From assembly GCA_036785375.1 (NCBI GenBank), contig JAWMAR010000421.1, positions 620,001-684,000 on the forward strand: a DNA stretch of 64,000 nucleotides, given 5' to 3'. Source of the stretch: Leucoraja ocellata. Its lineage: Eukaryota. Shown here in pieces: positions 43,103-56,503 of the stretch. Position numbers and translations under genes: made by a program. Positions within the stretch are counted from its first letter, which is position 1; each line of letters begins with the position of its first letter. The notes beneath the pieces are model-generated. The model did not search any database. It saw nothing but the letters and a program-made list of their open reading frames with translations, and was not told the DNA's origin.

Positions 43103-46100
43103 TCACATTCCTGGGTTCCTAGCTGAGAACAGGTTGCAGTAAAAGTCAAAGTGCTGGTCAGTTAGTGAAGGTTGAAAACTCTGAAGAGAGTTCATGAAGT
43201 GCATTTGTGTCACTGCGGCAGCATCAAGCCCATTTTCTTGTAGAGACAATAACGCAGCCTGTCAGAGGAATAAGAGATGAAAATTAAACATCTGACGACT
43301 CTGTGGTATAAGTTACAGGACACATAGAGGTGTCCGCACAGCCCAGGCCAGTCTGGGGACATAATCATGCCAACCTGGAGCTGTTGTGTCAGAGAGGGGA
43401 TGGGCCAGAGGAGGTGGTGGTGGAATAAATGGGACTTTCCCAAGGTTGACTGATTACACTGGGAACATTGAATGAACAACAAGGAAGTTGAAACCGAAAG
43501 TGAAACACAAATTCTTGCAACAATTCCAAGAAGTTCAGCAGCAGAGTAATAAACAAGTGCAGAGTGCAACAAACCGAACAAGAGTTTGTTACCAGGTCAG
43601 TGCAGCCGGTGTCCTTCATCTGACTACTTCACTCTACAGATGCTACCTGACTCACTGAATTCCTCCAGCACTTTGTTGTCTGGTCGATAATCTAGGGCTG
43701 GACTAATCTCATAATACAGCAGAGAGCATAAATTTATAAAATTGTAATTTTTCTCACAGGAGATAATGGATACAAACAGCTGATATTTAGTGTCCATCCC
43801 TAACCATGCCTGAACTGAGGAAGCAGTTTAAAGTTGTTGGATCTGGATTCGTGGGTGACAGAAAGGGTGAGGACGGCAGACTTTCTCGCACAGAAATTAA
43901 TGAACCAGCTGTGATTAAGACAATTTGGTGGTTTCACTATTATCAATCCTGAGATTAATTTAATTCCAGATTCACTTAATTAATTAAAGTTAAATGCCTT
44001 GTAGCCATGGAGGGATTCAGAGCATCACACTGAATCAATGGTCTGCACTCCAGATACCCATGCAATGGTGTAACCACTTCATGGTCATCCTCATCTACCT
44101 CTTCTGTACTAAATTCTGGAATGAAAAGCTGGAGTCTGTGCTGCAATGATTCAATGGGCTTGTGTGGTCAGGGAAGGAAACCTGGTGTCTTTACCCCGTG
44201 GGCAATGCAGTACCCACAGCAATGAAATGGGCCGCATTCCCTCAGTGATGACAAAACATCACATTGATGGCAGATTTATACAGTTACAGAACTCAGCAGC
44301 CACACAGAGAAGCAATCCGCAGATATGCATACCAGGTATGTTCAGGTTAGTTTCAGATTTTCATCATCCGCAACAATTTAGATATATGCAGAGGACTTCA
44401 GTAGATTTGCAAAGTATTGCAATGGCTAGAGGATGTGTTGTGATAACAGTAAATGCCTCAAGAAAATGGCTGTTTCACCATAACACAGCAGCAGCAATCA
44501 TTGAGTTACACCACCTCAACCTGTGCATTCACCTCGGGTAAGCAGACAGTAGAGTTACAGTTCTCTTGCTGTGTTTCAGCAAACTGAATGCATCTGCCAA
44601 TTTCCCCAACGATGTTCACATCCCACGTAAGCAGTTATACTGCCCCTGGGACGAGGCATTATAAACTAACGGCATGACAAACTCACCGCAGTGCCTGACG
44701 TCTGAGAACACTTATGGTTCCAACTCAGCATTGCTTTGCTAGTTTAAGGTACATGGAGCTCCAGCCTTGTCTGACCTGCACCACAATCCACATATCTATG
44801 TTCACTCAAAATCTAAAATGCATCTCTACTTCCCTTTAAAGAGTTTGTTTTTACATTTTTGCCCTTTCCCTGTTCGGCTGCCCTGATAATGACTGCCTGT
44901 AAACCCTCGCTTGATACAGAGAGTGAAAGACCTGGCCCGACTCCCAATCCGGCCACTACAATCCCATGCTGTCAGCGCACTCACCTCCTTGCACAAATTC
45001 TGTAAATCTGCTCCAGTAAATCCTGCGGTCACAGCTCCTAGCTCCTTCAGGCACACGCCATCCAGTGGCGTTTTGGAAGTGCAGATCCTCAGAATGGAAA
45101 GTCTTGCCTAACATGTAAAAAATGTTAATTAGTAACCAAGAAAAAGTGTAGAGATGATCACAATGCAAATTGACCACTATCTAAACAATTTCACTGAAAA
45201 TGTGATCATCTGATCATTTCTTGTTGTTTTTGGAACATTATTATACACAGGCGCTGATATATTACTGTGTCAGTGAGGTTTGGAAATACTTTATATAAAC
45301 ACAGGACTGTCCTAAGCGTGACATATAAACGTTCCAATTAAAGGCAGAAGTGTAGTACACCTTTATCCACAGCTCTTTGTGTCTTCAAAAAACTCCAATA
45401 AATTGGCCACACGTGATTTCTCTTCCCTCCCCGTTGTGTTGACCTGATCATCCCGATTTGTTTGCAAGTGCTTTGCTATGACATTTTAATAATAGCGTTT
45501 AACGTTTTTCCAATGACAGATGTTAAAACTGACAGGACCGTAATTTCCCTTTTTCTGTCTCCCTCCCATTTTGAATAAAGTACATTTGCTACTTTCAAAA
45601 CTAATGCAACCGTCCCTGGAATTACGAAGTTAAGAAAAATTGAAACCTATGGGTCAACCATCTACTGTTTTTTAAGGGCTTTTCCAGGACACAGTGACCC
45701 ATACGTCATCAACTCCACAAGTCGCTCGGATGATTGTTATTTTCCGACTTGCTCTCTGTTCCCGATTCTGGAATTTGAGCTATCTCTAATAGCTGCGCTC
45801 TGCAATGGTTTATCAAATGGTGGCCACTTCAACAAAACATTCAATGGAACTTTATTTATCCCAAGAGGAAAATTGATCTGCCAACAGCCATAAAAACACA
45901 AAATATATAAAGCATGAAATTAAAGTGACGAGTGGAAAGTACAGAAGTGCATCATCAACATCTCTTGAACATACTCGCCTCTTCATCTGGGGGTGGAACA
46001 TAGATGATTTGATCAAAGCGGCCAGGTCGCAGTAAAGCATCGTCCAAGAGATCTGGTCGATTCGTAGCAGCAATCACAATGACGCCTTTGTTACAAATTT

Positions 46101-53704: not shown

Positions 53705-56503
53705 TCACTTGGTGTAACCTTTCACCATCTGCAGTTCATCCACGGGTTTCCATTTCTGACTGACGGTCATGAACTGCCAGGAGAAAAAACGGCAAGGCTT
53801 TAATCGTTCCGCGAAACAGGCGTCGTGGCACAGATGTACATAAACAATTGTACTGTCATCGGCAGCGAAACTGCACTGATCCAGTGTGAGAGCCAGTGGC
53901 CATTGGACCGGTCTCTGGACTGAGATGGAAGTCGGATGTTTGAAGGAGCGGGTGGGGGATTGAGGTCCCGCCTGTGTGATTCAAGTCTTCTATCACAGGC
54001 TCAGGTCGTTCTCTGAACACTAGTGGTGGGTATATGGAACGAACTGCCAGTCAGAACGACCCCCCCCCCCCCCCACCACACACACACAACAAAATGCTCC
54101 CATTGTGTATGTGTCCTTTACCCCAACTTCACCGCCGCCACGTTCCAAGTCATTTTGGTTAACAAACTGTTCCACAGGCATTAGGCCGGGGGCCAGAGGA
54201 CACATTTCCGACCAGTTGACTTTATTTCCTGAGAGAGTGGAATGAAACAGGCTGGGCCACCACTGACTTCGAACGCCACATTTGGATCCGTGACCCACAT
54301 TTGGAGCATTGCCCTATCCTCCTCTGGAACCCGGTGGACACAGTTCTGATGCAGGATCCCAACCCGAAACGCCGACCATGTATCTGTCTCCACAGATGCT
54401 GCCCGACGCGCTGAGTATTTCCAGCAGTTTTACTCTGCTCCAGTTTCCAGCATATGTATCTCGAGAAATTCCCCACGTAACTAGCGCGTCCACAGGAGCA
54501 ACCCAAACCCAACACTAAATGCTGTTGGTGCTGCATTTCCTCGGCGCCTCCCCCCTCCCCCAGTGCGCGGCTCCCTCACACCTGGGTCTGAAGCTCTCAT
54601 CTCCCGCGAGGTTCCCTCCAAACCCCATCAGGCCTCCGAGAGCATTTGTCCGCCCACCCTCCCATATAGTGCTCATTCCACCCTCCCATCAATCCCACCC
54701 CTAAGGACTGGTCTCTTGCACAAAACCATCGGAGCCACCAGCTTCTCCCCCTCACCCACATTTGGGGAATTCACAGCCGATTAACCCACACCGTCGTTGG
54801 AGGAAAGCGAGCTCCTGGAGAGGAGGGGGTGACGCGGTGACACGGGAACATGCAAACCCCACGCAGACAGCATCGGAGGGCGGGATCGAACCCACGCCAC
54901 CAGCGCTGGGAAACAGCGGCCCTCCCGCGGCGCCATCACTGACGCACCGGCACAGCCCCGCCCCCCTGTTGTCCAGCGAACTCCCTTTTCTCTCGCCAAC
55001 ATCCTTTTCCATCGGCCATCGCCGCTCTTGCCGGTAAAAGCAAACTTCATCACCTCCTCGAGTCTCGCTCCACCCCCCTCCGCCCGTCCTCGCCACCCCT
55101 TCCAGTTACTCCCTCTAATCTCCCTCCTCCCATCCCCGCCCCCCTCTCCCTCCTTTCCTCATCCTCCCATCCTCGTTCCTCCCTCTAATCCTCGCTCCCC
55201 CTCTCCATGCCCGTTCCACCCACCCTCCAACCCCGCTCCTCCCTCATCCCCTTAATCTGCCATATCCCTCCTTTGCCCCACCACCTCAATACTCCTTCCC
55301 CCCTCTCCCTTCTCCATCTCTTCCATCGCCCCCCCCCCCCCCCCCCCCGCTCTCCAGCCGCGGCCCCACCCGTCTGGTCACCAGGATACTCTTACATCAA
55401 GATGTTGCCCAACATCGCGACCAGCCCGCTCCGGGAATCAGTGACTCAGCCGCTTTCCCATCAAATGTTATAAAGTCAGAGCTATGAGGTTACCTTCTGA
55501 GGTTTGTTCGGGTCTATGTTCTCCCATGGGGTAGGATTGTGCGTCTTATCGATTCTAAATAGAGAGAAATGAACTTCAGAAATGTTTTATCACCCAAAAA
55601 GTATCCGATCGCACGGCTGGTGTACTACATCCAGATCCTGATCCCCCCCCCCCCCCCCCCCCCAAACACACACGTCTAGACAAACACACACAGACCGGAA
55701 ACCCCCACCGCGCACCCCAACATACAGACACATCCTTGAACACATACACAGTGATGCTTGTTGCACTTCAACATCTGCAACAGGTCCCCGGCCCCTGTCC
55801 CCTGTCTCCCGGCCGGGAACGGATACTTACATGACATCGCTCTTGGTGACGAGGAAGTAAATGCCGGCGCTGGTACAGAACGAGGCGGCGGTGGCCATCA
55901 GGCCGATCAGGGGGATGAGCTGCGGGACAGACGGCATCGGTCACCATGGGCTCCGAATGCGGCATCGGAGCCCGATTGAAAAGCAACGGGTCTAACAGAA
56001 GCGGCTGCTCGGCTGCTGCAAACACCCGGGGAAAGTCAACAACAGCGGACGGGGCGAAGCTCAGCGCGCCGGGCAGCGGGTGTAGAGGGAGGACTGCGGT
56101 CAAGAAACGGACTGAACTGTCGGGAAGAAGAGGGGGAGACAGGCCGAGCGGCAACAGTGGTTCGGGAACAGACCGGGGGGTGATAGAGATGGAGCGGTCG
56201 GTGGCATAAGGGAGACGGGCCGATAGGCCATAATGGGGGGGATGCTGTCGATGGGCCGATCGGTCCGGTGGCTCACGGAGACGGGCTGGGCGTGATAGAA
56301 ACATAGAAAACAGGTGCAGGAGTAGGTACCCGTTCCTGCTTTCTCCCCGTAGCCCTTGATTCTGTTGGTGCCAAGAGCTAAATCTAACTCTTTCTGATGG
56401 AGGGGACGGGCCGAGTGGTCAGGGAGGATAGGGCGATCGGAGGGGGTGGGTGGGGTTGGTTCACCTCCTTCCTCCGGCGGAGCATCGTGAAAAAGTTCGA
56501 CAT
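53705..56503 (-). CDS. C15orf48: C15orf48/NMES1/COXFA4L3, copy B, 85 aa (same protein as copy A)
   Basis: Exons 56503-56465, 55919-55831, 55554-55494 and 53773-53705. Splice sites intact; AATAAA (minus) at 53483-53488. Confidence 0.93.

What the first reader, a model, noticed from the sequence alone, without database searches (positions are those of the whole stretch)
43103..56503. Headless AFG2B copy sits downstream of C15orf48-B with compatible phase: possible C15orf48-AAA chimeric gene
Seen: the junction falls in AFG2B intron 1, so copy A lacks its promoter and exon 1 yet keeps exons 2-8 fully open (400 codons; D2 Walker A GPPGCAKT, Walker B FLDE and SRH intact). On the same strand, 2.2 kb upstream, is C15orf48 copy B. 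Its exon 1 and exon 3 donors (56465, 55494) are phase 0, as is the AFG2B exon 2 acceptor (51474). Inference: skipping C15orf48 exon 4 would give an in-frame ~463-aa protein, the 63-aa transmembrane N-part of a complex IV subunit fused to one AAA module, under the C15orf48 promoter. This is speculative: the open frame may only reflect the young age of the duplicate.
Basis: partly seen in the sequence, partly recalled or inferred. Interest (0 to 1): 0.7.

Follow-up and report, generated by a model that had tools for sequence, protein, structure and literature searches.

The report
Young duplication leaves headless AFG2B copy
One of two matching contigs in this animal's genome carries a 16-kb tandem duplication that puts a promoterless AFG2B fragment in frame behind a second C15orf48 gene; it is likely a recent, neutral copy-number variant that would give at most minor read-through RNA, and no fused RNA was seen.

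Summary
The anatomy is as described. Copy A keeps AFG2B exons 2-8 open (400 codons). Joins from C15orf48-B exon 3 or exon 1 are in frame (463 or 413 aa). The duplication (36353-52597 repeated as 52598-68587) looks real: a 138-base contig matching the junction exactly stands in 2 of 4 runs laid. A second, colinear contig of the same assembly has only one unit, so it is probably heterozygous. It is young: the copies are identical over 4,613 bases and differ about as much as alleles elsewhere. An open frame is therefore expected without selection. All seven AFG2B introns are phase 0, so the phase match is inherited. C15orf48-B keeps its last exon and poly(A) signal. No chimeric joint was listed in 4 RNA runs, but none is shown to come from a carrier. 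The proposed GCA/GCG test fails, because the single-copy allele also has GCA. Verdict: a real potential-chimera structure of a known kind, most likely neutral. Trace read-through is plausible; a functional fusion protein is unlikely (about 3%).

The parts
36353..52597 (.). Duplication unit A: complete C15orf48 copy A plus AFG2B from intron 1 to the 3' end (headless)
   Evidence: self-BLAST
52598..64000 (.). Duplication unit B, continuing to extended coordinate 68587: C15orf48 copy B and the 3' part of the intact AFG2B
52595..52597 (.). Breakpoint: 3-base microhomology between AFG2B intron 1 and a G-rich minisatellite
52598..52680 (.). G-rich variable minisatellite at the junction (about 5 units here, 2 at the left end of A, 4 in contig C780)
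47985..52597 (.). 4,613-base block identical between A and B; contains AFG2B exons 2-5
51289..51474 (-). AFG2B-A exon 2 (D1 lid), phase-0 acceptor at 51474
48977..49135 (-). AFG2B-A exon 3
48569..48778 (-). AFG2B-A exon 4, D2 Walker A
48076..48309 (-). AFG2B-A exon 5, D2 Walker B
45979..46113 (-). AFG2B-A exon 6, sensor 1 and second region of homology
44985..45107 (-). AFG2B-A exon 7 (D2 lid); synonymous site 45024 where A equals C780 and B differs
43103..43258 (-). AFG2B-A exon 8 to the stop; poly(A) hexamers at 42998 and 42920
56465..56503 (-). C15orf48-B exon 1 coding part, phase-0 donor; CpG-rich promoter region
55831..55919 (-). C15orf48-B exon 2 (hydrophobic segment, Pfam B12D), phase-2 donor
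55494..55554 (-). C15orf48-B exon 3, phase-0 donor at 55494
53483..53773 (-). C15orf48-B terminal exon 4: stop ends 53705, donor-like site at 53678, AATAAA at 53488-53483
37408..40369 (-). C15orf48 copy A, four coding exons, same 85-aa protein as copy B and C780
59073..62096 (-). Exons 6-8 of the intact AFG2B (copy B, 760 aa in all)

Best explanation
A 16.2-kb tandem duplication, present on one of two matching contigs and likely a recent heterozygous variant, copied all of C15orf48 and the 3' part of AFG2B; the headless AFG2B copy is likely a neutral passenger, reached at most by minor read-through RNA from C15orf48-B. Shown: the breakpoints, the 3-base microhomology at a G-rich minisatellite, the single-unit contig, allele-level divergence, open frames and phases. 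Inferred: origin by microhomology-mediated repair or template switching, followed by crossing-over with single-copy chromosomes, which would explain the mosaic of alleles. Also inferred: most C15orf48-B transcripts splice to exon 4 and end at their own poly(A) site. Transcripts that escape would splice either from exon 3 or exon 1 (in frame) or from a donor-like site just after the stop (normal C15orf48 protein on a likely NMD target). The likeliest real effect is a third dose of C15orf48.
For: Contig C780 is colinear at 98.4-99.4% over about 85 kb and holds one unit. Only three matches to AFG2B exon 2 and three to C15orf48 exon 3 were found in the assembly, and the junction once. A 138-base contig covering 52568-52705 with 0 differences stands in 2 of 4 runs, at contig depth 13.4 against 47 and 9.2 against 28.1 for the flank. 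A and B are identical over 4,613 bases; elsewhere A-B differ at 107 of 10,917 clean columns, A-C780 at 65 and B-C780 at 110, against 247 of 54,525 between the two contigs' flanks. Simulated chance of no nonsense change in the 1.2-kb frame is 0.96 at divergence 0.001 and 0.63 at 0.01. All seven AFG2B introns are phase 0. The normal exon 3 to exon 4 joint of C15orf48 stands in 4 of 4 RNA runs. The intron remnant before exon 2 is not CpG-rich (GC 0.43, CpG o/e 0.43, against 0.67 and 0.87 at the real AFG2B start).
Against: No RNA run is shown to come from a carrier, so silence of copy A is untested. The configuration fits the commonest read-through pattern, and 4 of 20 random neighbour pairs meeting those rules gave fusions in human cells (PMC4450057, passages). 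In Drosophila yakuba 24 of 76 duplication-born chimeras showed raised expression (PMC5460883, passages). X1 may be the source of the assembly and X4 may be the same animal. Contig depth is not a copy number. The two contigs' flanks also share identical runs of up to 4,058 bases, so the 4.6-kb identical block dates the event only loosely.
Confidence: 0.75

Rival explanations
1. A regularly expressed chimeric mRNA: C15orf48-B often skips its terminal exon and splices to AFG2B-A exon 2. This would put the D1 lid and D2 module under an inducible promoter and give a 463-aa protein that is made but has no selected role, or is mildly harmful.
For: In-frame join computed; intact acceptor at 51474; 2.0 kb from the poly(A) hexamer to the acceptor with no intervening promoter or first exon; it fits the second-to-last to second exon rule (PMC4450057, passages).
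Against: Exon 4 has an intact acceptor 1.7 kb from the exon-3 donor and a canonical AATAAA. A donor-like site at 53678 would compete and give a non-fused product. No such joint is among the 15 listed of 129, from runs not shown to be carriers.
Confidence: 0.17
2. A functional new gene under selection: a membrane-anchored, probably mitochondrial AAA module.
For: D2 motifs are intact and A has no amino-acid difference from B. C15orf48 is an inducible inner-membrane protein in mammals (PMC8035321, passages).
Against: Absent from the matching contig and from the listed contigs of 2 of 4 runs. Too young for an intact frame to show constraint. It lacks the N-terminal domain that binds C1orf109 and the D1 core, while AFG2B works in a 4:2:2:2 complex with AFG2A, C1orf109 and CINP (PMC12019325, passages). 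It loses the last 22 residues of C15orf48.
Confidence: 0.03
3. An assembly artefact: two haplotypes joined head to tail.
For: Only one of the two contigs has it; A and B are identical next to the junction; the junction sits in a minisatellite; the read support is one base short of the tool's bridging rule.
Against: A, B and C780 are three distinct sequences (31, 80 and 63 private sites), more than a diploid single-copy locus can hold. The junction's 31-mers occur once in the 204 kb held (8 of 8 tested) and are matched exactly by contigs from 2 runs.
Confidence: 0.05

Closest known systems
Polymorphic tandem duplications that make chimeric gene structures (Drosophila yakuba survey, PMC5460883)
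   Same: A segregating tandem duplication that ignores gene boundaries and places one gene's promoter ahead of another's 3' exons.
   Different: There the 5' part of one gene is fused directly to the 3' part of another. Here the upstream gene is complete, so a chimera needs terminal-exon skipping and read-through. Expression is not shown.
Cis-splicing between adjacent genes, read-through fusion RNAs (PMC4450057)
   Same: [quoted passage not shown]
   Different: The neighbourhood was created by a duplication, and the downstream partner has no promoter or first exon. No fusion RNA was observed.
AFG2B (SPATA5L1) of the SPATA5-SPATA5L1-C1orf109-CINP complex (PMC12019325; PDB 9lgo_F, 8rhn_O)
   Same: Best solved-structure match for exons 2 and 4; D2 motifs intact.
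   Different: Copy A lacks the N-terminal domain and the D1 large subdomain (360 residues of exon 1).
C15orf48 / NMES1 / MOCCI (PMC8035321, PMC7793259)
   Same: 85-aa protein with a Pfam B12D match; all four exons match fish proteins, two of which UniRef names 'Normal mucosa of esophagus-specific'; lies between AFG2B and SLC30A4.
   Different: Two complete copies on one contig. No Rfam match in the 3' UTR, where the human gene carries miR-147b.

Membership tests
Tandem-duplication copy-number variant | Head-to-tail repeat with a novel junction | tested here: met
Tandem-duplication copy-number variant | Junction present in sequencing data outside the assembly | tested here: inconclusive
Tandem-duplication copy-number variant | Single-unit allele exists | tested here: met
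   Contig C780; normal flanks at both ends in run X2, which carries another organism label
Chimeric gene / read-through fusion | Same strand, under 30 kb, compatible donor and acceptor | tested here: met
Chimeric gene / read-through fusion | Upstream gene copy is transcribed | tested here: inconclusive
   C15orf48 is spliced in 4 of 4 RNA runs, but copy B itself is not distinguished
Chimeric gene / read-through fusion | Linear transcript joining exons of both genes | tested here: inconclusive
   None among 15 of 129 joints listed; the runs are not shown to be carriers and three barely cover exon 2
Chimeric gene / read-through fusion | Fusion protein made, or frame kept by selection | not testable with these tools
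   No proteomics; the copy is too young for a test of constraint
AFG2B (SPATA5L1) | Closest solved relative is AFG2B rather than AFG2A or p97 | tested here: met
AFG2B (SPATA5L1) | N-terminal domain plus two complete AAA modules | tested here: not met
   Copy A lacks exon 1; met only by copy B and C780
C15orf48/NMES1 (NDUFA4 family) | B12D domain and likeness to NMES1-named proteins | tested here: met
   no tree against NDUFA4 or NDUFA4L2 was built
C15orf48/NMES1 (NDUFA4 family) | miR-147 hairpin in the 3' UTR | tested here: inconclusive
   No Rfam hit at E up to 1; fold no better than shuffles, z -0.39; I did not check that Rfam holds that family

The most novel reading that the evidence does not exclude
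Carriers express, under the inducible C15orf48 promoter, a 463-aa protein that drags an AFG2B D2 ATPase module to the mitochondrial inner membrane or poisons the AFG2A-AFG2B ring: a new gene caught at birth while it still segregates.
Probability: 0.04. Interest if true: 0.7.

Novelty: new member of a known kind. Interest (0 to 1): 0.2.

Why it matters
As it stands it is an ordinary young structural variant. It has two small uses. It gives a natural extra dose of C15orf48, a gene that remodels complex IV during inflammation in mammals. It is also a clean test of whether a complete upstream gene reads through into a promoterless downstream fragment, with a single-copy allele in the same animal as control. 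If the fusion protein were shown, it would be a rare case of a vertebrate gene at birth that joins a respiratory-chain anchor to an AAA ATPase.

Tried and rejected
No RNA holder was listed on record by the run search; this says nothing on expression. RNA lay: no 55494-to-51474 or 56465-to-51474 joint among the 15 joints shown, with 114 not shown. Depth over 51332-51805 was about 0 in X22, X23 and X24. X22 and X13 carry other organism labels. X23 differs from all three local alleles at 6 sites of the C15orf48 3' UTR, so it is probably not a carrier. In X13 one contig covers exons 2-8 and runs on for 232 letters not placed among the pieces shown, which fits exon 1 but was not checked. X6 had no contig over 52605-52990, a hole that proves nothing. 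The Poisson chance of a 4.6-kb identical block (8e-10) was dropped as overstated, because allelic flanks share runs up to 4,058 bases. The exon-7 SNP was rejected as a marker of copy A. A search for longer proteins with the C15orf48 domain gave 3 of 73 candidates, 125-179 aa, B12D only; this is weak evidence of no fused form. The representative search gave 2 hits, one of them a chance repeat protein. Papers: none held SPATA5L1, C15orf48 and fusion together; one unrelated GWAS held the three gene names (listing only). Two searches and one paper did not give the membrane topology of the family, so N-terminus in the matrix and C-terminus in the intermembrane space is recalled. Three look-ups of earlier findings were empty. 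The predicted fusion protein was not folded, so its structure is open. No supplements were read.
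Full report
Setting. The window is contig C421:620001-684000 of a 3.44-Gb assembly in 5,847 contigs. It holds SLC30A4 on the plus strand (an exon at 18385 matches human SLC30A4; further exon matches up to about 31.9 kb among 126 of 142 frames scanned). C15orf48 and AFG2B lie on the minus strand. That this order matches human, and that the animal is probably a cartilaginous fish, is recalled and was not tested.

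Gene identity. Exons 2 and 4 match human AFG2B best among solved structures. Pfam places the D1 core in exon 1, the D1 lid in exon 2, D2 in exons 4-6 and its lid in exon 7. The small gene matches Pfam B12D, and its four exons match fish proteins, two of them named NMES1 by UniRef. No tree against the NDUFA4 paralogues was built.

Observation. With 40 kb of neighbouring sequence, the repeat is 36353-52597 (A) and 52598-68587 (B). The right breakpoint lies in AFG2B intron 1. Copy A's exons 2-8 give 400 open codons with the D2 motifs; the only coding difference from B is one synonymous site. Joins from C15orf48-B exon 3 and exon 1 are in frame (463 and 413 aa); the join from exon 2 stops after 66 aa.

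Is the duplication real? Probably. A, B and the single unit on contig C780 have 31, 80 and 63 private sites, three sequences where a diploid single-copy locus allows two. In 2 of 4 runs laid, a 138-base contig covers 52568-52705 without a difference, at about a third of the flank's contig depth. X1 may be the assembly's source and X4 the same animal. Run X2 (another organism label) shows normal flanks at both ends; X6 shows the C780-type allele and no junction contig, but has a hole there. The breakpoint has 3 bases of microhomology (52595-52597) with a G-rich minisatellite of variable length. I infer microhomology-mediated repair or template switching.

How old is it? C780 is colinear with C421 at 98.4-99.4% over about 85 kb and has one unit, so it is most likely the other haplotype and the duplication is heterozygous. 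A and B are identical over 47985-52597. In 36.4-40 kb A matches C780 (4 of 3,301) while B differs (51). In 40-48 kb all three differ about equally (56, 61 and 61 of 7,616). The flanks differ at 247 of 54,525. The simplest reading is a recent duplication whose left part was later exchanged with single-copy chromosomes. An origin between two homologues is not excluded, since allelic flanks also share identical runs up to 4,058 bases. Either way the copies are no older than allelic variation.

Why the open frame and phase mean little. Simulated chance of no nonsense change in 1.2 kb is 0.99, 0.96, 0.79 and 0.63 at divergence 0.0002, 0.001, 0.005 and 0.01 (substitutions only). All seven AFG2B introns and two of three C15orf48 introns are phase 0 in every copy, the single-unit contig included. 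A breakpoint in any AFG2B intron would have looked compatible.

How it most likely works. C15orf48-B is complete, with an intact exon-4 acceptor and AATAAA at 53488, and the exon 3 to exon 4 joint stands in 4 of 4 RNA runs. The remnant ahead of copy A's exon 2 is not CpG-rich, so copy A likely has no promoter. Read-through is plausible: the predicted join is the form favoured in human cis-spliced fusions, where 4 of 20 random pairs meeting the rules gave a product (PMC4450057, passages). In D. yakuba 24 of 76 duplication-born chimeras showed raised expression (PMC5460883, passages). A donor-like site 27 bases after the C15orf48 stop (53678) offers a competing route that would give normal C15orf48 on a likely NMD target (inference). 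A fusion protein would lack the N-terminal domain through which AFG2B binds C1orf109 in the 4:2:2:2 complex (PMC12019325, passages). If imported like C15orf48, an inner-membrane protein (PMC8035321, passages), it would likely be cut off from its partners; the topology is recalled.

RNA evidence is inconclusive. No chimeric joint is among the 15 of 129 joints listed, but three of four runs barely cover exon 2 and none is shown to be a carrier.

Flaws in the proposed tests. The exon-7 allele of copy A is also that of C780, and the three exonic differences found give copy A no private allele. On a single-copy allele AFG2B's stop lies 2,570 bases upstream of the C15orf48 start on the same strand, so read-through plus back-splicing could give the same joint (inference).

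Comparison and novelty. It works like a polymorphic tandem duplication that sets up a possible read-through fusion. It cannot be filed as a chimeric gene, because no transcript is shown. One paper search for the pair with 'fusion' found none. A weak search for longer B12D proteins found 3 of 73 candidates, none with an AAA domain. PMC7793259 and PMC8488679 were seen as passages; other papers as listings only.

Verdict. Observation confirmed, interpretation partly supported. Neutral young variant 0.75, regularly expressed chimera without a selected role 0.17, artefact 0.05, functional new gene 0.03. Interest 0.2.

Noticed in passing
window 36353-52597 against 52598-68587 and contig C780 (L008-L010): The duplicated units are a mosaic: A matches C780 at the left end, all three differ in the middle, and A equals B at the right end. 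This points to recombination between duplicated and single-copy chromosomes.
   Followed up: partly
window 53678 (minus strand), C15orf48-B 3' UTR: A near-consensus splice donor 27 bases after the stop; it may be used once a downstream acceptor is in reach.
   Followed up: partly
window 49367-50700: A and B carry 1,380 bases where C780 has 626, including a high-copy repeat; a polymorphic insertion in AFG2B intron 2.
   Followed up: partly
window 39317-39490 and 42708-42870: Stretches of 173 and 161 bases present in A and C780 but missing in B.
   Followed up: no
window 45978-45977 (minus strand): AFG2B exon 6 uses a GC donor in all three copies.
   Followed up: no
window 48113: One amino-acid difference in D2 (Met in A and B, Thr in C780), in a stretch that may be the flexible D2 insertion.
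   Followed up: no
window 53470-53780: No Rfam match and no unusual fold in the C15orf48 3' UTR, where mammals and gar carry miR-147b.
   Followed up: partly
window 18385 to about 33800 (plus strand): SLC30A4, convergent with C15orf48; the coding exons found lie outside the duplication, but its 3' UTR end was not mapped.
   Followed up: partly
window 9662-14704 and 23475-24913: Decayed LINE-type reverse transcriptase and endonuclease fragments, recognised by eye from translations.
   Followed up: no
G000 contigs C421 and C780: The assembly holds both haplotypes of this region, so gene counts from it may be inflated.
   Followed up: partly
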